Below, one piece after another: positions 42,640 through 53,520 of a DNA stretch of 64,000 nt. This DNA is from an uncultured Candidatus Saccharibacteria bacterium (GTDB lineage: Bacteria > Patescibacteriota > Saccharimonadia > Saccharimonadales > Saccharimonadaceae): contig CAMIHP010000002.1 of assembly GCA_946222005.1 (NCBI GenBank), positions 25,322 through 89,321 on the forward strand, written 5' to 3'. A program made the position numbers and the translations under genes. Positions within the stretch are counted from its first letter, which is position 1. Every line of letters starts with the position of its first letter. A model generated the notes under the pieces. That model was not told the origin of the DNA, did no database searches, and worked only from the letters and a program-made list of their open reading frames with translations.

Positions 42640-43875
42640 TCATTGATATGAGCGTAAAACTACCTTGAGGGTGTGTTTCTTACCAACACGCAAAATGTCA
42701 TCGTTAGCAAGTGGTGTATCTTCACTGGAAATTTTGGAGTCATTGATCTTCACGGCATTTTGCTTAATGAGCCGTCTGGCCTCGCCGCGACTTTTTGTGA
42801 TGCCCAGTCGAACAATGATATCGATAATTGACTCATGGGCATCCACCTGAACGATGTCAATATCCTTGGCAAGATTCTTCTGACTCACCTCAGAGACCCA
42901 TTGCTGCTCAGCATCAACGGCGGCGCTCGCTCCGTGGTACATTGACACTATCTCTCGAGCAAGATCCTTTTTGATATCGCGTGGGTTTTCTCCGTCGTTG
43001 AGCCGACTTTTAATTACAGCAATCTCACTCATAGACAGGCGCGTACAATCCACAAAACACTGGTAAATACCCGCATCCGCCAGCTGCATGATTTTAAAGA
43101 ACATATCTTTGGCATTCAGATCGAGACCCACACCGGTGCCAAGGCTTTTGCTCATTAATTTTTCGCCGGTTTCTGGGTTTTCGAGCAGTGTGGTTGTCAT
43201 GACAAACTTTTCTTTTTGCTTGTAGCGCTTGAGTAATGTACGGCCAGCCAGCATATTGAATGTTTGGTCGGTGCCACCAATCTCTACATCAACATCCATT
43301 GCCACGGAATCGTAGCCCTGCATCAGCGGATAGAAGAACTCATGGACGAAGAGTGGCTTCTCGGCAGCGACTCGCTTTTTGAACGCATCGCGCTCTAGCA
43401 TCTGCTGCACGGTAAAGTTGGAGGCAAGCTCCACAGAATCTTCAAATGTTAGCTTGGAGAGCCACTCCGAATTAAACTGGAATTCTATCGGGTTGTCGAT
43501 ATCGTTAAAGTCTAGAATCTTGCCAATTTGTGCCTTAAATGTCTGCAGGTTCTCCAGCACTTGTTCACGTGTTAGCTGCACGCGCATCGAAGTCTTATCG
43601 CTCGGATCACCGATCATGGCGGTAAAGTCGCCAATTAGCACAATAATCCGGTGGCCAAGAGCGTGGAACCGTTCGAGTATCAGATAATTTGTTGAGTGCC
43701 CAAGATGAACATAGTTCGCAGTTGGGTCAATACCAAGATAGAATGTGAGGCGGCGGCCACTTTGTAGCTCCTTTTTGAGGCTATCTTTGCTCGGAAGAAT
43801 TTCGGCAACTGAGCGAGATAGCGCTTCATCGATCAAGTGTTCGTCGGTAATAACGTGGTGCGCTTGAGTATTCAT
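42640..43875 (-). CDS. tyrS: Tyrosine--tRNA ligase.
   Basis: HIGH motif 'HLGH', 'KLMSKS' KMSKS motif, and a C-terminal S4-like domain. Start chosen at 'MNTQAHH'. Confidence 0.9.
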   Translation of the reverse strand: MNTQAHHVITDEHLIDEALSRSVAEILPSKDSLKKELQSGRRLTFYLGIDPTANYVHLGHSTNYLILERFHALGHRIIVLIGDFTAMIGDPSDKTSMRVQLTREQVLENLQTFKAQIGKILDFNDIDNPIEFQFNSEWLSKLTFEDSVELASNFTVQQMLERDAFKKRVAAEKPLFVHEFFYPLMQGYDSVAMDVDVEIGGTDQTFNMLAGRTLLKRYKQKEKFVMTTTLLENPETGEKLMSKSLGTGVGLDLNAKDMFFKIMQLADAGIYQCFVDCTRLSMSEIAVIKSRLNDGENPRDIKKDLAREIVSMYHGASAAVDAEQQWVSEVSQKNLAKDIDIVQVDAHESIIDIIVRLGITKSRGEARRLIKQNAVKINDSKISSEDTPLANDDILRVGKKHTLKVVLRSYQ

Positions 43876-44098
43876 GTATAGTATTTTACTACATACGAGA
43901 AGAGATAAAAAACTGAACATGCCTTGAGATCACTTGTTATGTGCCGCTGGAGCCCTATGATTTACGGTGTATCATAATGTGAAAGGGAACTGTGAGTGTG
44001 CAAATGTCTTGTTTATACATGGATGTATGACATCGCTTGTACTACTTATGCTACGGTTGATGGTAGTGCTAGGTCTGAAGATACACTACAATAATAAT

Positions 44099-44638
44099 AT
44101 GAACCAAGAATGGAACGTTATAAGTCAAAAGAAGTTGGTCGACTCGTCGTGGTACAAGCTCAATATTGAAACCGTCAGGCTCCCGTCAGGCAAAGTCCTC
44201 GATGATTATTACGTGCGAGAGGGTATGAACGCCGTTTTGATCGTTCCACGCACTCATGAAGGCAAATTTTTACTGGTGCGTCAGTACAAACACGGAGCGC
44301 AGCAAAGTGTTATAGAATTTCCTGCGGGTAAGATTGATGCGGGTGAATCTGCTTTAATTGCTGCAAAAAGGGAATTATATGAAGAGACTGGAGGCACCTC
44401 CAGTCTTTTTGTAGAGGGACCTACATTTTTTGAGGACCCTACAAATAGCCGTGTCAAGATAGCGATCGTCTTTGCTGATAATGTCACTATAAAGCATAGG
44501 CAACATCTTGACGATAATGAGGATATTGAAGTAATACAGCTAACAACTGACGAGCTACGAACTATGCTTATGAACAATGAGCTATCTGTGGCAGCATCCG
44601 TAGCAGCAGGTTGGATAGCACTAGAGAGGAGATGGTAA
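44099..44638 (+). CDS. NUDIX hydrolase (ADP-ribose pyrophosphatase-like), low GC.
   Basis: Nudix box 'GKIDAGESALIAAKRELYEETG'. The longest ORF starts at 43967, but its first 44 aa look non-coding. Confidence 0.65.
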   Translation: MNQEWNVISQKKLVDSSWYKLNIETVRLPSGKVLDDYYVREGMNAVLIVPRTHEGKFLLVRQYKHGAQQSVIEFPAGKIDAGESALIAAKRELYEETGGTSSLFVEGPTFFEDPTNSRVKIAIVFADNVTIKHRQHLDDNEDIEVIQLTTDELRTMLMNNELSVAASVAAGWIALERRW

Positions 44639-44848
44639 CATGAATACATACGAGTCTGGGACAATAAACCAGGTATTGAAAAAAGCAAACTGATGATTGA
44701 GGTGATTGATAAGGAATGAGGAGTAGGACGGAGACTGTTTATCGATATGGTATCTAGACAGATATAACTCATAAAAGGGAAAATCAGAAGTTCTATATTC
44801 GTGCTAGAATAGTCAGAGAGTAGGAAGTAGGGGGTGAGGGTAGAAAAT

Positions 44849-45610
44849 ATGCCCAAGAAGAAACTAAATAATAATACCAAACTAAGCTTCCGTACCATTC
44901 TTCTCCGTAGTATTCTCTATGTAATTGGTGTACCAACAGTCATCATGCTTCTCCTTGTTGGCGGATTCTATCTCAAATTATGTGCTGAAGCTAGCCAAGC
45001 TCAAGCAGCAATGAAAACATATCTACATAGTAAATATGGTGAAGAATTTATCGTCGAACGACCAGAAAAGAATGGAAGCGGGCTCGGTGTAGAAGGGTGG
45101 TTTGAAGCAACAGCCTACCCGAAGAATCACACAGACATCCGCTTCATTGTTATGCTGTCATCCTCAGGGAAGCATGATGGCTATGCTGGTGCTGTATGGT
45201 CAAAAGAAGAGACTGATCGACTCAAACCTATTATTCAGCGTATCTTTAGTAAAGATGTAGTGTATAGTGTAACCATCCAATCGTCTATGACGCTACAAAC
45301 GAAAGATATACAAGTTGACGGTGTAATACCACGTTTTACACAAGCGGCGGCACAATATAAGCAGCAAATTCCATATAATATCACTATTCAAAAAACACAC
45401 CAAACACGAGAATATCAGGAAAAAATGCGCATCGTCGATAATCTTAAAGAGCTTGCAAAGGATCTGCCAGATACCGTTGACACTACTATTCGCTACCAAG
45501 CACAAACATCTGGAGGTAAGAAGTTTGATTTAGATATAACAATCATGGCATTAAAATCCACACCACAAGAAACATTAGTCACAATGTTTCAAGAAAAGGA
45601 GAGTCTATAA
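44849..45610 (+). CDS. Paralog 1 of a four-member family of type-II membrane-anchored proteins (conserved N-terminal TM anchor, divergent extracytoplasmic C-domain). Candidate immunity or variable surface protein.
   Basis: 'MPKKKLNNNTKLSFRTILLRSILYVIGVPTVIMLLLVGGFYLK' is shared almost identically with paralog 3, and clearly with paralogs 2 and 4. ATG preceded by a G-rich RBS. Confidence 0.6.
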   Translation: MPKKKLNNNTKLSFRTILLRSILYVIGVPTVIMLLLVGGFYLKLCAEASQAQAAMKTYLHSKYGEEFIVERPEKNGSGLGVEGWFEATAYPKNHTDIRFIVMLSSSGKHDGYAGAVWSKEETDRLKPIIQRIFSKDVVYSVTIQSSMTLQTKDIQVDGVIPRFTQAAAQYKQQIPYNITIQKTHQTREYQEKMRIVDNLKELAKDLPDTVDTTIRYQAQTSGGKKFDLDITIMALKSTPQETLVTMFQEKESL

Positions 45611-45612
45611 AT

Positions 45613-45684
45613 ATGAGCATAACAATAGAGCAATATCTTGCACTAAGTGCACTTGCCTATAAAATACAACCTTTAAAAGAATAA
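45613..45684 (+). pseudogene. Degenerate 5' fragment of the lipase/RTX gene (24 codons) trailing paralog 1.
   Basis: Translation 'MSITIEQYLALSALAYKIQPLKE*' against the lipase N-terminus 'MVKDEQFLTLSSLAYEPFSD'. The core 'EQYLALSALAY' matches 'EQFLTLSSLAY'. Confidence 0.55.
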
Positions 45685-45710
45685 CTAGAAAGTTCCATAA
45701 TTACACTACT

Positions 45711-45734
45711 AATAGTCGCGTAGCTAAAATAGGG
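45711..45734 (+). promoter_or_regulatory. Conserved upstream element of the paralog array (copy before paralog 2), containing a -10-like TAAAAT.
   Basis: 'aatagtcgcgtagctaaaataggg' here matches 'acaatagtcgcgtagccaaaaaatagggg' at 46751-46779, with a weaker 'agaatagtc' at about 44807. Confidence 0.4.
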
Positions 45735-45752
45735 ATCTTGAGAGCAGAAAAT

Positions 45753-46505
45753 ATGTCCAATAAAAAACCAAACGATAACAGCAAACTAAGCTTCCGCACC
45801 ATCCTCTTCCGTAGTATTCTCTACGTGATTATCATTCCGACAGTTATCATGTTGGTAATATTTGGTATATTCTACACAAAATCTACTATTGATGATCATA
45901 TTGCTCAATCACATATGCGGTCATACCTCAAACGTAAGTATGGCCAAGAATTTATAGTAGAGAATTATCGAATCGAGGGGGCTGGCCTTGGAGTAGATGG
46001 TGTTGCCAAGGCTGAGGCGTATGCTAAAAGTGACCACACGATTCGATTTATGGTGAAGGGGTTTCCGGGGGACAGTCCATACAGTAATAACTATTGGGAT
46101 GGATACCCCGATATGACATGGGCAAAACACCTCAAAAAGGATATTGATCCTATGATAAAAAACGTATTTGGTGCCGACACATCGCTCGCATCAATAGAAG
46201 TTTACAGTATACCTGCAGTGAACCAAAGGATAGGAAAAGAAATACCATTGTATCGTGATGCCTTCCAGCGATTTGGTAAAGATATACATGTCGCTGTACG
46301 TATAAAGAGTAGGGTTGTCCATAATGATGTAGCCGCACAGATATACCAGATAATCGTCAAGCTGCGAGAGTTCGGTGTGTCGCTATCTATTAATTATGAG
46401 AACCCCATGGTATATGTTGCATTAGTCGAAGAAACAAGTATACGCGGTATACATTCACCACAGGATGTAAGGAAATATATAGAAATGAAGGGGGAAAAGC
46501 TATGA
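45753..46505 (+). CDS. Paralog 2 of the membrane-anchored family.
   Basis: 'MSNKKPNDNSKLSFRTILFRSILYVIIIPTVIMLVIFGIFYTK'. The C-domain is divergent but alignable in patches with the other three paralogs. Confidence 0.6.
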   Translation: MSNKKPNDNSKLSFRTILFRSILYVIIIPTVIMLVIFGIFYTKSTIDDHIAQSHMRSYLKRKYGQEFIVENYRIEGAGLGVDGVAKAEAYAKSDHTIRFMVKGFPGDSPYSNNYWDGYPDMTWAKHLKKDIDPMIKNVFGADTSLASIEVYSIPAVNQRIGKEIPLYRDAFQRFGKDIHVAVRIKSRVVHNDVAAQIYQIIVKLREFGVSLSINYENPMVYVALVEETSIRGIHSPQDVRKYIEMKGEKL

Positions 46506-46543
46506 AAATAGAACAATGCTTGGTGTTAAGCTCATTATCTTAA
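46502..46543 (+). pseudogene. Second degenerate 5' fragment of the lipase gene (14 codons) trailing paralog 2.
   Basis: 'MKIEQCLVLSSLS*' against the lipase 'MVKDEQFLTLSSLAY'. Confidence 0.5.
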
Positions 46544-46750
46544 TAGTACATCCCTAAGTAGTTTTGCCTCTAGCAGCGAGAAGCCACCATTGAGGCGCTC
46601 ATAAAACAGGGAAAAATTGACAATTATCGCCATAGCGATGGATCTATTTCTCTCGAATGCAAACCCCTCTCCTCTCTCATATCTTGACACCTCATCAACG
46701 CTACGACTTTCAGAGTAAGAAGAATAACTCAATAGTTCTGCATTTGTGCT

Positions 46751-46779
46751 ACAATAGTCGCGTAGCCAAAAAATAGGGG
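46751..46779 (+). promoter_or_regulatory. Conserved upstream element of the paralog array (copy before paralog 3).
   Basis: A duplicate of the 45711-45734 element, including the TAGCCAAAAAAT -10-like box. Confidence 0.4.
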
Positions 46780-46797
46780 TTGTTGGGAGAAGAGAAT

Positions 46798-47538
46798 ATG
46801 TCCAAGAAGGAACTAAATAATAACACCAAACTAAGCTTCCGTACCATTCTTCTCCGTGGTATTCTCTATGTCATCATTATTCCAACGGCTGTTATGATTC
46901 TCCTTATTGGTGGATTCTATCTCAAGGCCGATATTGAGGCGAATCAAGCTCAAGCAACAATGAAAACTTATTTACAAAACAAATATAATGAGGAATTCAT
47001 CGTTGAGAAACCAGAGCGGAAGAGCAGTGGCCTCGGCGTAGAGGGAGTACTAGCTGCCAATGCTTACCCTATACGGGATCCTCATATACGATTTTCTGTA
47101 AACACCTCATCGAATGGCAATCAAGATAACTATCCAGGTGTAATATGGTCCCGCTCTCAGAATGATAAGTTAATAAAGGATCATATCATAAATAACTCAT
47201 GGGCGCAGACCGACATCACTGTCAGTCTTGCAGACAATACAGCACAGTCGCTGAGCGGTACACCTAAAACATACGAAGAAGCGATAGCGTCTTATGGAAA
47301 AGATATTCACTACATAATAAGTGTTAATCGTAATACAAATCAATTGGCTGTCGATAACCGGGATCGGTACTATCTCATAAGCCTTATTAGATATATCAAT
47401 CAGCAAAAAGTTGGCTACCGTATTATACATTACAGCATACATGATACGAAGATGGACGCAGACATAGTGTGCAATATACAGGTAGAAGGTACGCGTCTAT
47501 TAGATGAAAAACAAGCCAATGAATGCTTTAGAAAATAA
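46798..47538 (+). CDS. Paralog 3 of the membrane-anchored family.
   Basis: The first roughly 130 nt are near-identical to paralog 1 at the DNA level. The C-terminal domain is divergent. Confidence 0.6.
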   Translation: MSKKELNNNTKLSFRTILLRGILYVIIIPTAVMILLIGGFYLKADIEANQAQATMKTYLQNKYNEEFIVEKPERKSSGLGVEGVLAANAYPIRDPHIRFSVNTSSNGNQDNYPGVIWSRSQNDKLIKDHIINNSWAQTDITVSLADNTAQSLSGTPKTYEEAIASYGKDIHYIISVNRNTNQLAVDNRDRYYLISLIRYINQQKVGYRIIHYSIHDTKMDADIVCNIQVEGTRLLDEKQANECFRK

Positions 47539-47556
47539 GGGGTGGGGACAGAAAAC

Positions 47557-48318
47557 ATGCACGAGAAAGAACCAGACGAGAATAATAGGCTAAGCTTTCG
47601 CACCATCCTCTTTCGTGGTATCCTCCGCGTTATCATTATTCCGACATGCGTCATACTTCTATTAACTGGTGCATTAATCGGTATATTTCATATTAAGTAT
47701 CTTATAGAGGCTCATCAAGCTCAGGCTGAAATGCGCGCCTACCTAGAGAAAAAATATCACCAGCACTTCATTATCAAGAACTATCGAATTGAAGGAGGAG
47801 GATTCGCAAGAAGAGGCGGCAAAGTTGCAGATGCACATAGAGAGGGTAGTTCTTATACCTTTCGTGTTTTAGAGAAAGATCACCGGCTCTATCGTGATAA
47901 CTACCTCTCAGCACTTTACAATGAGCAGGAAGAAAAAGATCTTACCAAGATGGTTAAAAAATTGTCTATACCTGCAGTAAAATATATGCCAGATATTACA
48001 ATTGCTCCTGATGTAGCTGATGGGATACAGGGTACGCCAGCTTTTGCTGAGATGTTGCAAAAGTATGGAGACCATATTATATATGAAGTATCTATTGTTG
48101 TAGTAGGGGATCAGGTAAAAGAAGAAGATGTCCAAAACGTAAGAAAACTTATGGAGTATGCCCAATCAAAAAACCCGAGAAGTTATGCTGTGAGATATGT
48201 TGTAAATAGCAGAACTGAAGATGCACGATATATTTGTCAGGAGTATGGAGGTATAAGCGAGAAAACGGCGCAAGAAACTTCTAAGGATTGCTTTAAAAAG
48301 AGTAAGGGAAGGATATAG
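47557..48318 (+). CDS. Paralog 4 of the membrane-anchored family. Directly followed by the lipase/RTX gene.
   Basis: 'MHEKEPDENNRLSFRTILFRGILRVIIIPTCVILLLTG'. Stop at 48318 and the lipase ATG at 48321. Confidence 0.6.
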   Translation: MHEKEPDENNRLSFRTILFRGILRVIIIPTCVILLLTGALIGIFHIKYLIEAHQAQAEMRAYLEKKYHQHFIIKNYRIEGGGFARRGGKVADAHREGSSYTFRVLEKDHRLYRDNYLSALYNEQEEKDLTKMVKKLSIPAVKYMPDITIAPDVADGIQGTPAFAEMLQKYGDHIIYEVSIVVVGDQVKEEDVQNVRKLMEYAQSKNPRSYAVRYVVNSRTEDARYICQEYGGISEKTAQETSKDCFKKSKGRI

Positions 48319-48320
48319 TA

Positions 48321-50909
48321 ATGGTAAAAGACGAACAGTTTTTAACTTTGAGCTCATTGGCATATGAGCCGTTTTCTGATAATGATATCAACAAATCTTT
48401 AAAAGAAATTATTAAGAAAGTACCTAGAAACAACCGTCTTGAACTTAAACCTCTCTCCTCCCTCGCATCCTGGCACCTCATTAACGCCACAACCACTTCA
48501 TCTGGTATGTCGGCTATTGCTGTGCAAGATCCAGCCACCAAGGACATTGTCTTTGCCTATCGCGGAACGGATATTGATAAGAATATCTGGGAGGCGATGA
48601 AAGATATTGAGTCGGATATTGCGATTGCATCGAGTGGAAATGTTTTTGTGCAGGATGGGCTGAACCAATTCCACGATGCTTACACCTTCTATACCGAGAC
48701 GATCAAGAAAGTTGGTGGCGGTGCTCATGTAGGCACCAAGAGCTTCACTGGCCATTCACTCGGTGGTGGACTAGCGCAGTATATGGCGTATAAAACTGGT
48801 GGTGCATATAAGACGGTCACCTTCGACGCGGTAGGGATTGGCCAAGTGCTGAAGAATGTCAACCCGCGGGACTATGATACCTCAGTAACGGACTACACCA
48901 ATGAGCACGATATCATTGGTATGTATGGTGTGCAGCTGGGCCGCACAGTGTACATTAAGGATATGAACAGTGATGAGCTGCGTAAGAAGGACCGTGACTA
49001 TGTGACAATACTGCAGTATGCGCAGGGTGCCATTGCTGTGGCGGCACGCAATGGCGAGCATGCCTCAGCAATGGGGTGGATGGCAGCTGCAAGCATAGCA
49101 TCGCTCGGGTATGCAGTGAATCGCACTAGCCAAGAGCTAGCTTTCGATGCACATCGTCCAAGTAGTTTATTAACTGATGATGGTACGCTAGCAGCCACTG
49201 TACCGCAGGGAGACTCCATCACGAATACATTGGCTGGCGCACTTCGTACAACACTGGAAGTATATACCGGTATTGCCAATGGTGTTCATTTCATCGTTGT
49301 TGAGATTCCAAGTGCTACAGCTGAAGAGCTTGTGCGAATAACGCTCTCTGTCGCTGAAAGTGGTAAGAAGATCATAGTCGATGTAGCACAGGTGATTCGC
49401 GATCAGGTGAATATCCTTACCTCTAGTGTATATGAAACAAGCCGGATTATGGGTGAGCAAGCCGATGCCTTTGCTCGTGTGCTGATGACACAACTTGCTG
49501 GGGCTACGCAATGGACAACTTCGCTCCGCCTCGACATTGCCGTGCTGAGTGCACTGAGTGGTGCGGCCAGAATAACGCGCGATACACTTGCTGCTATAGT
49601 AGAGACACCTGATGCGATGACACGTTGGCTGCAGATGGTCTTTGGTGCAAGTGCACATGTCGTTGGTACAGCAGCAGACGATTCTATTGATGGTTATGAT
49701 CATATCCCAGACTATGGCGTGACGAAGCGTGCGGTCTATGTAGAGGGCCGAGAAGGGAATGATTACGTAACAGGAACGAATTCTGATGATACATTGATGG
49801 GTGATGCAGGGAATGACACTATCATGGGCAAAGGTGGTAATGATATGATTTTTGGCGGTGATGGTGACGATTCTCTATATGGTGATGGTGGTAGTGATAC
49901 AATTTTTGGCGGTGCTGGCGATGACAACCTTAATGGTTCAGAAGGTGATTCTAATAAGCTCTATGGTGGCGCAGGTGATGATGGAATAAATGGTTCCGGG
50001 TTGATTGTTGGCGGCGCAGGTGATGACCGGATCGACTCTCAATTTGGGAACGATACATATATCTATAACCGCGGTGATGGTAATGACACGATTAGCGACT
50101 TTGGCGGCATTGACACTGTACGGTTTGGTGCGGGTATCGTGCCAAGCGGTGTAACGGCACGCTATGAGAGCCGCCCGTATGGCGCGCCAGGCAATGATTA
50201 TGATCTTGTCTTAGATATAAAAGGCTCTGGTAGTATTCGCATCAAAGACTATTATGGTTCGAGTGACTGGGCAGGACGGAACCGTCCCGTACCGGGTCAT
50301 CGTGTCGAGCGCTTTGTTTTTGCAGATGGCACCGTGTGGGATGAGCAGGCAATCCGCACCATGACGCATAACTTACAAGGAACAGCTGACGATGATTCTA
50401 TTGACGCCTTTGATGATGATGGTATCACGGTACATAGTGGAGCTGGTAACGACACGGTGCGTGGCGCGAGGCAAGACGCAAATGTGCTCTATGGGGACGA
50501 CGGTGATGACAGCCTCATTGGTGGTGAGAAAAATGATATGCTGACTGGTGGGCAGGGTAATGATGTGTTGTATGGTGCAGGTGGCAACGATATCTATACC
50601 TTCAAGCGAGGGGATGGTGTTGACACGATAAGTGATGATGACGGCGTTGACACACTGCAGTTTGGCGAAGGCATTAATCCGCGTGATGTGACTGTTCGAC
50701 GTATCCATCTTTCATCATATGAAAGTCTCGAGCTTGCTATCACGGGTACAGGTGATAAAATCATTATCCAAGGATATTTTGGCTCGTACTCATACGACGG
50801 GCTGCATGAGAGCACAAGCCAGCAGATCGAAAAAGTGGTTTTTGCTGATGGTACGGTATGGACACCGGAGATAATCGCGCAAATGCTTGTAGAGCACACG
50901 AGTGAATAG
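48321..50909 (+). CDS. Large secreted-effector-like protein. N-terminal lipase class 3 / Mbeg1-like alpha/beta-hydrolase domain, then RTX nonapeptide Ca2+-binding repeats and two haemolysin-type Ca-binding-related (HCBP_related-like) domains.
   Basis: 'VFAYRGTDIDKNIWEAMKDI' and the nucleophile elbow 'FTGHSLGGGLAQYMA'. Repeated 'GNDTIMGKGGNDMIFGGDGDDSLYGDGGSDTIFGGAGDDNLNG' repeats. Two copies of '...RGDG(N/V)DTISD..G(I/V)DT(V/L)(R/Q)FG.GI.P..VT.R.......VFADGTVW'. No N-terminal signal peptide. Confidence 0.8.
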   Translation: MVKDEQFLTLSSLAYEPFSDNDINKSLKEIIKKVPRNNRLELKPLSSLASWHLINATTTSSGMSAIAVQDPATKDIVFAYRGTDIDKNIWEAMKDIESDIAIASSGNVFVQDGLNQFHDAYTFYTETIKKVGGGAHVGTKSFTGHSLGGGLAQYMAYKTGGAYKTVTFDAVGIGQVLKNVNPRDYDTSVTDYTNEHDIIGMYGVQLGRTVYIKDMNSDELRKKDRDYVTILQYAQGAIAVAARNGEHASAMGWMAAASIASLGYAVNRTSQELAFDAHRPSSLLTDDGTLAATVPQGDSITNTLAGALRTTLEVYTGIANGVHFIVVEIPSATAEELVRITLSVAESGKKIIVDVAQVIRDQVNILTSSVYETSRIMGEQADAFARVLMTQLAGATQWTTSLRLDIAVLSALSGAARITRDTLAAIVETPDAMTRWLQMVFGASAHVVGTAADDSIDGYDHIPDYGVTKRAVYVEGREGNDYVTGTNSDDTLMGDAGNDTIMGKGGNDMIFGGDGDDSLYGDGGSDTIFGGAGDDNLNGSEGDSNKLYGGAGDDGINGSGLIVGGAGDDRIDSQFGNDTYIYNRGDGNDTISDFGGIDTVRFGAGIVPSGVTARYESRPYGAPGNDYDLVLDIKGSGSIRIKDYYGSSDWAGRNRPVPGHRVERFVFADGTVWDEQAIRTMTHNLQGTADDDSIDAFDDDGITVHSGAGNDTVRGARQDANVLYGDDGDDSLIGGEKNDMLTGGQGNDVLYGAGGNDIYTFKRGDGVDTISDDDGVDTLQFGEGINPRDVTVRRIHLSSYESLELAITGTGDKIIIQGYFGSYSYDGLHESTSQQIEKVVFADGTVWTPEIIAQMLVEHTSE

Positions 50910-51150
50910 CGTATAACCTCTGTCTTGGCTCCATCTCATCTGTTGTATTAGCTTTATTGTCTTTATATTGGTAGGCTAGATGGTTTGGGCTACTTTCTCA
51001 ATATTGGTGCTTAGGCAGAATACTAGCTTTCATAACTTCCTAGAGGAAGAATAAGACAGCGAGAAATAATAAATGGGCTGATATGAGCACGTCGCCTCTG
51101 CAGGAGTCTCTTTAAGCTAGCTTTCATCTCTCTCCTGCACAATACCACAC

Positions 51151-51879
51151 ATGAAAACAGCAACCATGACCCAATCAGCCGGAGCGGTAGAGGCACCCGC
51201 TGCGCCAGTGCTGCGTGCGCTTAATCCGCGAATGCTCAGCATCGATATTGTGCTGCCAGTGCTTAATGAGGTGCATGTTATTGCGCGCTCGGTGAGCACG
51301 TTGCACGCGTATTTATCACAGCATGTGCCGCATCGCTGGCGCATCATTATTGCCGACAATGGCAGCACGGACGGCACAGCGGAAGCGGCGCACCAATTGG
51401 CGGTACGTTACCCCGAGGTGTGGCTCATCCAGCTTAGCGAGAAAGGCCGCGGCCGGGCTCTCAAGCAAGCGTGGCTACAGAGCTCGGCTGATATTCTGGC
51501 CTACATGGATATCGACCTCTCTACCAATTTAGACAGCTTCGTGTCAATGATCACCCCGCTGATTATGGGTGAGGCAGCTGTGGCGACGGGCTCGCGCCTA
51601 ATGAAGCAGTCGCGCACAAGCCGCGGCTTCAAGCGTGACACTATCTCGCGTTGCTACAACTGGATTATTCGCCGGACGATGAAGACAAAATTTGTCGATG
51701 CCCAGTGCGGTTTCAAGACGATTCGGCGCGATGCGGCACGCAAGATTCTGCCTCGCATCAAGGATACTGGCTGGTTTTTTGATACCGAGCTGCTCGTCAA
51801 GGCAGAGTACGCTGGCTACACCATCCACGAGGAGCCAGTTTTTGGGCTGGCTCTCTATTATTTCTTTTATCTCAACTAA
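51151..51879 (+). CDS. Family 2 glycosyltransferase (dolichyl-/polyprenyl-phosphate sugar transferase-like).
   Basis: 'IDIVLPVLNE', 'IIADNGSTDGT', 'MDIDLS' DxD-type motifs. Confidence 0.8.
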   Translation: MKTATMTQSAGAVEAPAAPVLRALNPRMLSIDIVLPVLNEVHVIARSVSTLHAYLSQHVPHRWRIIIADNGSTDGTAEAAHQLAVRYPEVWLIQLSEKGRGRALKQAWLQSSADILAYMDIDLSTNLDSFVSMITPLIMGEAAVATGSRLMKQSRTSRGFKRDTISRCYNWIIRRTMKTKFVDAQCGFKTIRRDAARKILPRIKDTGWFFDTELLVKAEYAGYTIHEEPVFGLALYYFFYLN

Positions 51880-52472: not shown

Positions 52473-52856
52473 TTGTCTATACAAACCCTTGAGGAATGGC
52501 GTAATGAAGTAAAAAATCGAATTTTTAAGACTGCCCTAAGCCACGTCGTGCATACCACAGATACAACCATAAACAAGGAGTATACGACAATGGCACAGCA
52601 ACCAACTCTCACCACAGACGAAGCTCTCGTTTTGCAGCAGATCAACGAGCATGGCGAAGATGATGTGATTGGCCTAGAGCAGAGCCTGCGCATGAGCCGC
52701 CCAAAGCTTATGGCGCAACTCACTCACCTCAAGAACAAAGGGCTTATTACGGTCAAGATGACGACTGGTGATTGGCAGTGTGGTGAGCTATCTCCTCGCG
52801 GAGCACACCCTGCGGCCGATCCGCGCCAACATGCACGCTCAGACGCAGTTCGTTAG
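52473..52856 (+). CDS. Small winged-helix-like hypothetical protein. Its 3' end overlaps the 5' end of the truncated histidine kinase in another frame.
   Basis: 'DEALVLQQINEHGEDDVIGLEQSLRMSRPKLMAQLTHLKNKGLITVK' has a wHTH-like pattern. The true start may be the internal Met (MAQQPT). Confidence 0.35.
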   Translation: MSIQTLEEWRNEVKNRIFKTALSHVVHTTDTTINKEYTTMAQQPTLTTDEALVLQQINEHGEDDVIGLEQSLRMSRPKLMAQLTHLKNKGLITVKMTTGDWQCGELSPRGAHPAADPRQHARSDAVR

Positions 52857-53520
52857 TGATGCCAGTCATGAGCTGCGCACGCCGCTGACCGCGCTGCGTA
52901 CTGCGAACGAAGTAGCGCTGCGCAACCCCAAGCTCACCTTGGCCGAGGCCCGCACCGTCATAGAAGCGAATGTGACCGATGCGACGCGGCTGCAAACGCT
53001 AGCCAATACAATGCTTGGCTTGCTTCGGCACGACCGCTCGGTGGTGCAGCTGCAGCCAGTTGCTTTACAAACCGTGGTGAGTGAAGCGATGAACTTGGTG
53101 GTGGCACCTGCCCAAGCGAAGTCGATTGCCATTGATGACACCACGCCACCTTTGATGGTGCGGGCTCATCAGCAGCGTCTTGTTCAGCTCCTTACCATTT
53201 TGCTCGACAATGCCATCAAGTACAGCCCGGAGCATACCACCATCACCATCACCGCTGGGAGTACCAATCGCTGGGCTAGGGTGCAGATCATTGACCGAGG
53301 CATCGGGATGGACGCCGCCACGCAGCGTCAGATATTCCAGCGCTTCTACCGAGCCGACCAAGCTCGCACTGGTGGCCTAGGCCAGGGCTATGGCCTTGGG
53401 CTTGCGATTGCCCAGCAGATCATCACCGAGCATGGCGGCAAAATTACTGTCGACAGTACGCCTGGTAGTGGCACGACCTTTACGGTGAGCTTGCGCCTTG
53501 TGGGCAGGCAGAGTACGTAG
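52768..53520 (+). CDS. Histidine kinase catalytic core (partial TM2/linker + HisKA + HATPase_c) lacking N-terminal sensor/TM domains. Either a 5'-truncated gene or a pseudogene.
   Basis: H-box 'SHELRTPLTAL'. N-box 'LLDNAIKYS'. G-boxes 'DRGIGM' and 'GLGLAIAQ'. The N-terminus 'IGSVVSYLLAEHTLRPIRANMH' is the tail of a TM2/linker. A GTG start sits immediately after an in-frame TGA. No response regulator nearby. Confidence 0.7.
   Translation: MIGSVVSYLLAEHTLRPIRANMHAQTQFVSDASHELRTPLTALRTANEVALRNPKLTLAEARTVIEANVTDATRLQTLANTMLGLLRHDRSVVQLQPVALQTVVSEAMNLVVAPAQAKSIAIDDTTPPLMVRAHQQRLVQLLTILLDNAIKYSPEHTTITITAGSTNRWARVQIIDRGIGMDAATQRQIFQRFYRADQARTGGLGQGYGLGLAIAQQIITEHGGKITVDSTPGSGTTFTVSLRLVGRQST

What the first reader, a model, noticed from the sequence alone, without database searches (positions are those of the whole stretch)
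45611..46545. Two decayed copies of the lipase gene's first codons sit after paralogs 1 and 2 (unit = paralog + lipase 5' end)
Two short reading frames follow paralogs 1 and 2:
- 45613-45684 encodes 'MSITIEQYLALSALAYKIQPLKE*'.
- 46502-46543 encodes 'MKIEQCLVLSSLS*'.
Both resemble the first residues of the large lipase protein, 'MVKDEQFLTLSSLAYEPFSD'.

Each is followed by a conserved roughly 25-nt element at 45711-45734 and 46751-46779, which carries a -10-like box. That element sits upstream of the next paralog. So the duplicated unit spans [upstream element - paralog - first ~20 codons of the lipase]. The array therefore grew by unequal crossing-over within the lipase 5' end. Earlier full cassettes (paralog + lipase) may have been collapsed. 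Orphan toxin fragments next to immunity genes are typical of polymorphic toxin loci.
Basis: seen in the sequence. Interest (0 to 1): 0.75.

Follow-up and report, generated by a model that had tools for sequence, protein, structure and literature searches.

The report
Leftover lipase gene starts between immunity-like genes
The two short reading frames are real leftovers of alternative beginnings of a secreted lipase gene, each permanently attached to its own upstream membrane-protein gene, and related Saccharibacteria genomes show that these gene-plus-stub cassettes are reshuffled by recombination, much like the orphan modules of bacterial toxin-immunity loci but in mirror image.

Summary
The window comes from a Candidatus Saccharibacteria (TM7) genome. 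Four paralogous genes for membrane-anchored proteins (types E, D, C, B) precede an 862-aa protein with an N-terminal class-3 lipase domain and C-terminal RTX repeats.

- **Stub after par1:** 45613-45664 is the first 17 codons of an E-specific lipase start.
- **Stub after par2:** 46502-46707 is about 70 codons of a D-specific lipase start, broken by +1 and -1 frameshifts and a TGG>TGA change. It is 87% identical to the working lipase start of a related genome in which D sits next to the lipase.

Across 22 related loci, every paralog type is followed by its own type-specific lipase 5' segment: A 18/18, B 18/18, D 17/17, E 16/17. That segment heads the full-length lipase when the paralog is last in the array. 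It is a truncated stub when the paralog is internal. All stub types end at the same nucleotide junction, after a conserved box.

Array order differs between genomes (EDCB, EDCBA, AEDCB, AB, ACB, CBAD and others), so the cassettes are shuffled through conserved flanks.

The reading as an immunity array for a reverse-arranged lipase toxin is inferred, not tested. Verdict: a new variant of a known kind, of moderate to high interest.

The parts
44772..44848 (+). Upstream element, copy 0 (first-position variant), with TGCTAGAAT (-10-like), before par1
   Evidence: Local alignment to the par3 copy: 48/69 identical, score 34 against shuffles 18 +/- 2.4. Multiple alignment.
44849..45610 (+). Paralog 1, type E: 253 aa, N-terminal transmembrane anchor plus globular domain
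   Evidence: ORF. Type clustering. Kyte-Doolittle maximum 2.39 at residues 22-40. No Pfam, NCBIfam, PADLOC or PHROG family.
45613..45684 (+). Remnant 1: E-linked lipase 5' stub. The homologous part is 45613-45664 (17 codons). The stub then joins the junction and upstream element after an internal deletion.
   Evidence: HMM top hit in the window, E 1.2e-7. 62/64 identical to the start of the E-terminal lipase pseudogene in L091. Present after type E in 16/17 cases.
45674..45752 (+). Upstream element, copy 1 (promoter-like), before par2
   Evidence: 64/85 identical to 46716-46797, score 56 against 17 +/- 2.3.
45753..46505 (+). Paralog 2, type D (250 aa)
46502..46707 (+). Remnant 2: D-linked lipase 5' stub, about 70 codons. 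It is a pseudogene with a +1 indel after codon 13, a -1 indel near codon 28, and TGG>TGA in the conserved box.
   Evidence: 183/210 identical to the functional D-linked lipase start L012:5859-6075. 39/47 identical to the resident lipase box 48447-48493. Translation.
46708..46797 (+). Shared junction (TTTCAGAGTAAGAAGAATAACTC) plus upstream element copy 2 with TGCTACAAT, before par3
   Evidence: The same junction nucleotide is seen in A, B, C and D stubs of other genomes. Element similarity.
46798..47538 (+). Paralog 3, type C (246 aa). It is followed directly by type B with no stub in 16 of 18 cases.
47557..48318 (+). Paralog 4, type B (253 aa), adjacent to the lipase. Candidate cognate partner of the resident lipase.
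48321..48446 (+). B-linked variable 5' segment of the functional lipase (codons 1-42)
   Evidence: It differs from the A-, D- and E-linked versions. In L001 the equivalent sequence survives as a stub after type B.
48447..48493 (+). Conserved box (KPLSSLASWHLINATT). This is the 3' limit of all stubs and a likely recombination handle.
   Evidence: It corresponds to helix 40-48 plus the first beta-strand 52-58 of the lipase model.
48321..50909 (+). 862-aa protein: N-terminal class-3 lipase / phospholipase-like domain (GHSLGG) plus C-terminal RTX repeats
   Evidence: Pfam HCBP_related 1e-27, HemolysinCabind 6e-22, and Lipase_3 0.0035 (17.7 bits, below the 22-bit gathering score). NCBIfam RTX models and SA1320 family, each far below its curated cut-off. 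Homologues carry PF26363 and PF01764. Foldseek matches fungal class-3 lipases, E 3e-7.

Best explanation
**What it is.** The locus is a cassette array upstream of a secreted lipase in a Saccharibacteria genome. [quoted passage not shown]

Each cassette consists of:
- a promoter-like element;
- a gene for a membrane-anchored protein with an extracytoplasmic domain (five types A-E in this clade, 30-45% identical to each other);
- that type's own version of the first 40-60 codons of the lipase gene, ending in a conserved box.

**How the stubs arise.**
- The last cassette abuts the lipase body, so its 5' segment is the real start of the lipase.
- Every internal cassette keeps its 5' segment as a truncated stub, joined at one fixed junction to the next promoter element.
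- The two ORFs in the finding are the stubs of cassettes E and D.
- They are most likely non-functional as proteins. The D stub is frameshifted and carries stop codons. The E stub has an internal deletion.

**What the stubs do now (inferred).**
- Together with the homogenised first ~100 nt of the paralog genes, they supply the homology through which cassettes are deleted, duplicated, moved and exchanged.
- Exchange between strains is plausible because Saccharibacteria are naturally transformable (stated in PMC11665869).

**Function of the paralogs (inferred).**
- They are probably immunity proteins against the lipase.
- Type B, par4 in the window, is the likely cognate one.
- E, D, C and A are likely orphan immunities against lipases of other lineages.
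For: **Shown**
- Stub homology is statistically supported.
- Paralog type and downstream 5' segment are perfectly linked in 22 loci, whether internal or terminal: A 18/18, B 18/18, D 17/17, E 16/17.
- D5 heads an intact 873-aa lipase in L012. A5 heads the lipase in L009 and L010 (frameshifted near aa 600 in L010). E5 heads a lipase pseudogene in L091.
- All stub types lose lipase homology at the same nucleotide (..AACGCCACAAC|TTTCAGA..).
- Array orders vary among genomes with about 95% identical flanks.
- The first ~100 nt of the paralog genes are 76-79% identical between types (E against C, 97%). The gene bodies are about 40% identical.
- The first-position paralog has mosaic 5' ends, with different breakpoints in the window and in L009.
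- More distant Saccharibacteria show the same theme. L025, L028 and L030 carry PAR - lipase stub (75-106 aa) - PAR - lipase. L027 carries full lipase - PAR - full lipase.

**Supporting the immunity reading (inference)**
- The paralog sits immediately next to the end of the gene that encodes the lipase domain in all 28 Saccharibacteria loci.
- The paralogs have an N-terminal transmembrane anchor plus a globular domain. This is the topology described for TilM immunity proteins of the reverse-arranged lipase toxin TslM (PMC13560087).
- The copies are multiple and non-identical, and their number varies.
- The arrays stay intact where the lipase is frameshifted or truncated, in 8 of 20 distinct loci.
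- Type B is present in all 12 arrays with an intact lipase. The 3 arrays without B all have a dead lipase.
- The family is very diverse: 590 clusters at 50% identity.
Against: - No experiment supports it. Neither toxicity of the lipase nor protection by any paralog has been tested.
- The paralogs match no known immunity family by sequence.
- Their best structural match is an uncharacterised DUF5037 protein.
- Within this clade the catalytic lipase body is constant and only the first 40-60 residues swap. Classical polymorphic-toxin logic, in which toxin domain and immunity co-vary, is therefore not met here.
- The association of type B with an intact lipase is weak statistically (Fisher about 0.05), and the genomes are not independent.
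- Most comparison loci are short-read MAG or metagenome contigs. Repeated flanks could cause chimeric assemblies, so array orders seen only once (CBAD, ABCD, CBED) deserve caution. EDCBA and AEDCB recur in five and four independent contigs respectively.
- RTX-type export in a bacterium presumed to lack an outer membrane is unexplained. No dedicated exporter was identified.
Confidence: 0.78

Rival explanations
1. The stubs are functional small genes. They would be translated N-terminal lipase fragments that act as regulators, decoys for the membrane paralogs, or secretion or chaperone adaptors, rather than relics.
For: - Both window stubs keep the ancestral ATG and a purine-rich ribosome-binding site.
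- The A-type stub of related genomes is an intact ORF of 72-74 codons in 6 genomes.
- Across the five 72-codon copies, that ORF shows an excess of synonymous changes: 12 synonymous to 12 non-synonymous, against a neutral expectation of 78% non-synonymous (p = 0.002). This resembles a real gene (34:44).
Against: - The D stub in the window has two frameshifts and four in-frame stops. The same defects occur in L007-L010.
- B stubs lack the start codon and the first 22 codons.
- The E stub is cut down to 17 homologous codons.
- D and B stubs evolve close to neutrally: 10:22 and 5:14.
- The A-stub signal rests on 24 changes in related, possibly recombining, genomes.
Confidence: 0.08
2. Each stub arose independently, when a full-length lipase gene that once followed each paralog was deleted (collapsed tandem full cassettes). 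On this view a single founding stub junction was not propagated.
For: - L027 carries two full-length lipase genes separated by one paralog.
- In other lineages (L025, L028, L030) the stubs end at other positions: family-HMM positions 51, 62 and 89.
Against: - Within this clade, A, B, C and D stubs all end at the same nucleotide and continue into the same junction sequence. Independent deletions would not reproduce this.
- The E stub is compatible with the same junction plus a later internal deletion.
Confidence: 0.1
3. The similarity is chance, or the arrangement is an assembly artefact caused by repeats.
For: The peptides are short. The source is probably a metagenome-assembled genome, and the locus is repeat-rich.
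Against: - E 1.2e-7 for remnant 1, and 87% identity over 210 nt for remnant 2.
- The same E and D stubs appear in the same positions in at least 12 independently assembled contigs from different samples.
Confidence: 0.01
4. The paralogs are not immunity proteins. They would be lipase-specific helpers, such as membrane-anchored foldases or export adaptors, or unrelated surface proteins. On this view the array varies for reasons such as evading host or phage recognition.
For: - No sequence link to any immunity family.
- The fold is a generic tandem alpha/beta (PepSY/cystatin-like) domain.
- Membrane-anchored lipase foldases encoded next to lipase genes are known in Proteobacteria (my own knowledge, not tested here).
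Against: - Five divergent helpers for one unchanged lipase body would be hard to explain.
- The arrays are kept intact in 8 loci where the lipase is dead. That is expected for immunity genes (PMC13560087) but not for helpers.
Confidence: 0.15

Closest known systems
Orphan toxin/immunity modules of CDI (cdiA-CT/cdiI) and Rhs loci
   Same: - Arrays of immunity-type genes, each attached to a truncated piece of the toxin gene.
- The fragments keep a stretch of the conserved region, which allows homologous recombination with the full-length gene.
- Array content differs between strains.
   Different: - The arrangement is a mirror image. The stubs are 5' ends that keep the start codon, and they lie upstream of the toxin gene. 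In CDI and Rhs loci they are 3' ends lying downstream.
- The part that swaps is only about 40-60 N-terminal residues, not the catalytic domain.
- The delivery module is RTX repeats, not CdiA or Rhs.
- The comparison rests on general knowledge and review-level papers found, not on a test here.
Reverse-arranged T7SSb lipase toxins TslA/TilA and TslM/TilM of Staphylococcus aureus (PMC10730906, PMC13560087)
   Same: - The lipase domain is at the N-terminus and the targeting region at the C-terminus.
- Immunity genes lie at the 5' side, next to the toxin domain.
- There are multiple non-identical immunity copies of variable number.
- The loci are recombination hotspots.
- Toxins are often frameshifted while the immunity genes are kept.
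[quoted passage not shown]
- NCBIfam 'SA1320 family' (my reading of the name as staphylococcal) weakly matches lipase residues 75-201 (54 bits against a cut-off of 230).
   Different: - There is no LXG-like helical C-terminal domain. RTX repeats take its place.
- No WXG/Lap partner genes lie downstream. The next gene is a glycosyltransferase.
- The paralogs match neither DUF576 nor DUF1433 in Pfam.
- The parts of the two papers I read do not mention 5' toxin stubs between immunity genes.
T6SS Tle lipase effectors with Tli immunity genes
   Same: - A GxSxG lipase toxin is paired with extracytoplasmic immunity proteins that are often present in several tandem copies (my own knowledge).
- A T6SS lipase effector/immunity structure (9cys) is among the Foldseek matches of the lipase model (E 2e-4).
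   Different: - There is no T6SS context.
- The phylum and the delivery domain are different.
- Immunity genes lie upstream, with toxin stubs between them.

Membership tests
Polymorphic toxin locus with orphan modules (CDI/Rhs type) | The immunity gene lies directly next to the toxin-domain-encoding end of the toxin gene | tested here: met
   A paralog abuts or overlaps the lipase start in all 28 Saccharibacteria loci. The gap in the window is 2 nt.
Polymorphic toxin locus with orphan modules (CDI/Rhs type) | Orphan modules consist of a truncated toxin fragment plus an immunity gene, and the fragment shares homology with the full-length gene | tested here: met
   Type-specific stubs follow internal paralogs. 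They keep the conserved box, which is 83-87% identical to the functional genes. The orientation is mirrored: 5' stubs lying upstream.
Polymorphic toxin locus with orphan modules (CDI/Rhs type) | The toxic (catalytic) domain is the variable part and co-varies with the immunity gene | tested here: not met
   Within the clade the lipase body is 90-98% identical whichever cassette is terminal. Only the first 40-60 residues differ.
Polymorphic toxin locus with orphan modules (CDI/Rhs type) | The toxin harms cells that lack the cognate immunity protein, and the immunity protein neutralises it | not testable with these tools
   This needs expression and competition experiments.
Reverse-arranged T7SSb lipase toxins (TslA, Tsl2/TslM) | N-terminal lipase/phospholipase domain with a Ser-Asp-His triad | tested here: met
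   GHSLGG is invariant. Lipase_3 gives only a sub-threshold hit on the window protein (17.7 bits against a 22-bit cut-off), while its homologues carry PF01764 and PF26363 in precomputed annotation. The model has the class-3 lipase fold. The Asp and His residues were not individually assigned.
Reverse-arranged T7SSb lipase toxins (TslA, Tsl2/TslM) | C-terminal LXG-like helical domain, plus WXG100/Lap partner genes and a T7SSb system | tested here: not met
   The C-terminal half consists of RTX and HCBP_related repeats. The downstream gene is a GT2 glycosyltransferase. No partner genes were seen.
Reverse-arranged T7SSb lipase toxins (TslA, Tsl2/TslM) | Immunity proteins belong to DUF576 (TilA) or DUF1433 (TilM) | tested here: not met
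   There are no Pfam hits for the 4 window paralogs or for 10 distant family members. Only the topology is shared, namely a transmembrane anchor plus a globular domain.
RTX proteins exported by type I secretion | Tandem GGxGxDxUx nonapeptide repeats in the C-terminal part | tested here: met
   PF00353 6e-22, PF06594 1e-27 and NF033943 1e-47 (the NCBIfam hit is far below its curated cut-off, 162 against 1000 bits).
RTX proteins exported by type I secretion | A dedicated ABC exporter, membrane-fusion protein and outer-membrane channel | not tested
   Only a MacB/FtsX-type ABC pair was noticed, about 6 kb upstream in the syntenic locus L001. No link to the lipase was examined.

The most novel reading that the evidence does not exclude
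The conserved flanks may make this a working cassette-switching system, not merely a graveyard of relics. The flanks are the promoter plus the first ~100 nt of each paralog on one side, and the lipase stub with its conserved box on the other.

Recombination between the flanks, within a cell or with DNA taken up from neighbouring strains, would repeatedly change three things:
- which membrane paralog is co-transcribed with the lipase;
- which N-terminus the lipase carries;
- how many paralogs are kept.

At least some stubs, such as the 72-codon A-type ORF that shows gene-like substitution patterns, may be translated and functional. That would be a new mirror-image form of toxin/immunity diversification. 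It would operate in ultrasmall epibiotic bacteria that must obtain their lipids from other cells.
Probability: 0.12. Interest if true: 0.8.

Novelty: new variant of a known kind. Interest (0 to 1): 0.6.

Why it matters
Saccharibacteria are obligate epibionts that cannot make their own lipids, and how they obtain them is unknown (PMC11665869).

This locus is present across the group. It pairs a secreted lipase with a fast-diversifying, unannotated family of membrane proteins: 590 clusters at 50% identity, with no Pfam model.

**If the paralogs are immunity proteins:**
- The array indicates lipase-based antagonism among Saccharibacteria, or self-protection during attack on the host membrane.
- It would add a new immunity family.
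- It would add the first mirror-image 'orphan' architecture, with 5' toxin stubs upstream of an N-terminal toxin domain.

**Practical value:**
- The type-specific stubs are ready-made markers of past cassette order, useful for tracing recombination between strains.
- They explain short 'hypothetical' ORFs that gene callers will annotate in these genomes.

Tried and rejected
- **Resident lipase 5' end as source of remnant 1.** The nucleotide match of 45668-45696 to lipase 48394-48424 scores 28, within the range of shuffles (mean 19, maximum 29). That region instead belongs to the upstream element. The evidence for remnant 1 comes from the family HMM and from L091.
- **Promoter scan.** The simple two-hexamer scan did not pick out the upstream element. 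Its promoter role rests only on the conserved TGnTAnAAT-like box.
- **Fixed-spacing pattern for the element.** It found only one copy, because the copies differ by 1-nt indels.
- **Family searches for the paralogs.** Pfam, NCBIfam, PADLOC, PHROGs and a PDB sequence profile returned nothing meaningful.
- **Foldseek against AFDB50.** The library was unavailable.
- **Literature.** Searches for a description of this locus in Saccharibacteria or Patescibacteria found none in the held library.
- **Terminator-like hairpin at 46624-46641.** It lies inside the D-linked segment, which is coding in L012, so I judged it incidental.
Full report
**Anatomy of the window**

The window holds four paralogous genes followed by a large gene:

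| Gene | Coordinates | Size |
|---|---|---|
| par1 | 44849-45610 | 253 aa |
| par2 | 45753-46505 | 250 aa |
| par3 | 46798-47538 | 246 aa |
| par4 | 47557-48318 | 253 aa |
| lipase | 48321-50909 | 862 aa |

- The four paralogs are 29-45% identical to each other.
- Each paralog has a basic N-terminus and one strongly hydrophobic segment at about residues 15-50. A globular domain of about 200 residues follows.
- The 862-aa protein has an N-terminal class-3 lipase / phospholipase-like domain with GHSLGG. Its C-terminal half consists of RTX and HCBP_related calcium-binding repeats.
- The array and the lipase 5' half are AT-rich: 38-43% G+C, against about 54% for the rest of the window.
- The closest genomes are Candidatus Saccharibacteria MAGs.

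**Checking the observation**

The two ORFs read exactly as reported.

*Remnant 1* (45613-45684, MSITIEQYLALSALAYKIQPLKE*):
- It resembles the family-wide N-terminal motif M-x-L-T-x-E-Q-Y-L-A-L-S-x-L-A-Y more closely than the resident lipase does.
- An HMM built only from database homologues ranks it first among all six-frame peptides of the window, at 28.7 bits and E 1.2e-7. The lipase start ranks second.

*Remnant 2* begins with the 13-codon ORF, but the homology continues in the same reading frame to 46707:
- The translation reads MKIEQCLVLSSLS**YIPK*FCL*QREATIEALIKQGKIDNYRHSDGSISLECKPLSSLIS*HLINATT.
- Its last 47 nt are 83% identical to lipase 48447-48493.

*The upstream element* is real:
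- It is about 80 nt long.
- It occurs three times, before par1, par2 and par3.
- It is absent before par4.

**What the stubs are**

Comparison loci came from three sources:
- syntenic contigs with about 95% identical flanks (L001-L004);
- 28 Saccharibacteria genome loci;
- 14 metagenome loci.

In the close clade the paralogs fall into five types, A-E. They are at least 80% identical within a type and 30-45% identical between types. In the window, par1 is type E, par2 is D, par3 is C and par4 is B.

Array order varies widely:
- The window is E-D-C-B.
- Others are E-C-B-A, A-B, A-C-B, A-E-D-C-B (four distinct contigs), E-D-C-B-A (five complete distinct contigs, plus L092 with a split E), A-B-C-D, C-B-A-D, A-D, A-E-D, C-B-E-D and E alone.
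- L090 and L096 appear to be the same contigs as L010 and L008.

Each type is always followed by its own version of the lipase 5' end:

| Type | Followed by its own 5' segment |
|---|---|
| A | 18/18 |
| B | 18/18 |
| D | 17/17 |
| E | 16/17 (the exception lies at a contig end) |
| C | followed directly by B in 16 of 18 cases; shows its own stub once (L011) |

When a type is last in the array, its segment is the true start of the lipase gene:
- B5 (MVKDEQFLTLSSLAYEPFSDN...) in the window and in L005-L008.
- A5 (MNLKVEQYLALSSLAYQVIPNS...) in L009 and L010.
- D5 (MKIEQYLALSILSYSKSLSSFASSSGEPSIEALIKQGKIDDYRHNDGSISLELKSLSSLASWHLIN...) in L012, where it heads an intact 873-aa protein.
- E5 (MNITIEQYLALSALTYKTLPTQTVNRLGEIKLDKIGVNFSALELKPLSSLASWHL...) in L091, where it runs into a decayed lipase.

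The two window stubs fit this scheme:
- **Remnant 2** is 183/210 identical to L012's D5. It differs by a +1 indel after codon 13, a -1 indel near codon 28, and TGG>TGA in the box. These changes explain its in-frame stops.
- **Remnant 1** is 62/64 identical to L091's E5 through codon 17. It then jumps to the junction, which indicates an internal deletion.

**A shared junction and homogenised flanks**

- In A, B, C and D stubs, lipase homology ends at the same nucleotide, after ..CATCAACGCCACAAC.
- It continues into the same sequence, TTTCAGAGTAAGAAGAATAACTC...AGTTCT...TGCTAnAATAGTC, which leads into the next paralog.
- In the lipase model this point is the end of the first beta-strand, residues 52-58. 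Residues 1-58 form three short helices plus that strand, at pLDDT above 85 (87-94 per 10-residue block).
- A common junction argues for a single founding truncation that was then propagated, rather than independent deletions.
- On the other side of each cassette, the first ~100 nt of the paralog genes are 76-79% identical between types (E against C, 97%). The gene bodies are about 40% identical.
- The paralog in first position has a mosaic 5' end with different breakpoints in different genomes. The window's E differs from L007's E mainly in its first 60 nt (49/60, then 58-59/60). It differs from L009's E over the first 180 nt (44, 41 and 50 of 60), and then matches at 59-60/60.
- Together these results show repeated homologous recombination in both flanks. 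This is the shown part of the mechanism.

**Wider distribution**

- More distant Saccharibacteria, including a Nanosynbacter MAG, show paralog - lipase stub (75-106 aa) - paralog - full lipase. Their stubs converge on the resident lipase at the same conserved W-box region (L025, L028, L030).
- L027 has a full 486-aa lipase, one paralog, and then a 2050-aa lipase.
- The arrangement is therefore a general property of this locus, not a peculiarity of one strain.

**Function (inferred)**

No known family matches the paralogs. A profile search finds 590 clusters at 50% identity, nearly all of 240-280 aa.

The AF2 model of type B has pLDDT 84.6:
- It shows a long N-terminal helix and a tandem alpha/beta domain.

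Several features match what is described for immunity genes of the reverse-arranged staphylococcal lipase toxins TslA/TilA and TslM/TilM (PMC10730906, PMC13560087):
- position next to the lipase-domain end of the gene;
- membrane-anchored extracytoplasmic topology;
- multiple non-identical copies;
- variable copy number;
- retention when the toxin gene is inactivated.

The state of the lipase gene differs between loci:
- Here the lipase is frameshifted in L001, L010 and L011.
- It is truncated at residues 135-151 in L024, L087, L088, L091 and L095.
- The paralog arrays remain intact in all of these.
- Type B occurs in all 12 arrays with an intact lipase.
- The three arrays without B all have a dead lipase.

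This hints that B, par4 in the window, is the cognate partner. The sample is small and not phylogenetically independent.

One difference from classical polymorphic toxins is important. The catalytic body is the same in all arrays of the clade, and only the first 40-60 residues travel with the cassette.

**Are the stubs functional?**

- D and B stubs are clearly dead. They carry frameshifts and stops, or lack the start codon, and their substitution patterns are near neutral (10:22 and 5:14 synonymous to non-synonymous).
- The A-type stub is not present in this window. It is an intact ORF of 72-74 codons in six genomes, with a gene-like excess of synonymous change across the five 72-codon copies (12:12, p = 0.002).
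- I treat this as an unexplained lead, not as evidence for the window's stubs.

**Verdict**

- The stubs are alternative, type-specific lipase starts, not decayed duplicates of the resident start.
- The array's history involves shuffling through two conserved flanks.
- The kind of system is known: a toxin-immunity locus with orphan fragments and a reverse-arranged lipase toxin.
- New here are the mirror-image stub architecture, the unannotated paralog family and the Saccharibacteria setting, as far as the searched literature shows.

Noticed in passing
L005:8974-9192, L006:8231-8449, L007:3114-3332, L011:6838-7056, L024:8986-9204 (not in the window): The A-type lipase stub is an intact 72-codon ORF in these five genomes (and a 74-codon ORF in L008). 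The five 72-codon copies show an excess of synonymous changes (12:12, p = 0.002 against neutral). This resembles the neighbouring real gene and differs from the D and B stubs. It could be a translated small protein, or recent exchange with functional copies.
   Followed up: partly
L001, L010, L011, L024, L087, L088, L091, L095 (lipase gene): The lipase is frameshifted or truncated in 8 of 20 distinct related loci, while the upstream paralog arrays stay intact. Five of these loci are cut at residues 135-151. Type B is missing only from arrays whose lipase is dead.
   Followed up: partly
window 51832-51840: Relative to L001, L007 and L012, the window lacks about 2.1 kb of the GT2-PMT glycosyltransferase gene. 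This leaves a 242-aa GT2-only ORF (51151-51879). L009 has the same deletion, so it is probably real.
   Followed up: partly
window 52765-52775: The window lacks about 1.2 kb that is present in L001, L007, L009 and L012. The missing stretch holds a response-regulator gene and the 5' part of the histidine-kinase gene, leaving a truncated kinase ORF (52768-53520). Among the loci compared, only the window shows this. It could be a real deletion or an assembly joint.
   Followed up: no
window 43000-51000: The paralog array and the lipase 5' half form an AT-rich island of 38-43% G+C in a genome of about 54% G+C. This fits import from lower-GC relatives, but the cause was not examined.
   Followed up: no
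L027:54-8472: A distant Saccharibacteria MAG carries a full 486-aa lipase, one paralog and then a 2050-aa lipase in tandem. This is a possible picture of the uncollapsed ancestral state.
   Followed up: no
proteins P0004, P0007, P0015, P0022, P0026: Homologues of the lipase domain are fused to different C-terminal regions. These include RTX repeats, PF26745 and PF20591, and in P0015 a long unrelated C-terminal part. The same N-terminal enzyme therefore seems to be mounted on several delivery modules.
   Followed up: no
window 47539-47556: Types C and B almost always travel as a pair separated by 18 nt, with no stub or promoter element between them (16 of 18 cases). Only L011 shows C with its own lipase stub.
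   Followed up: partly
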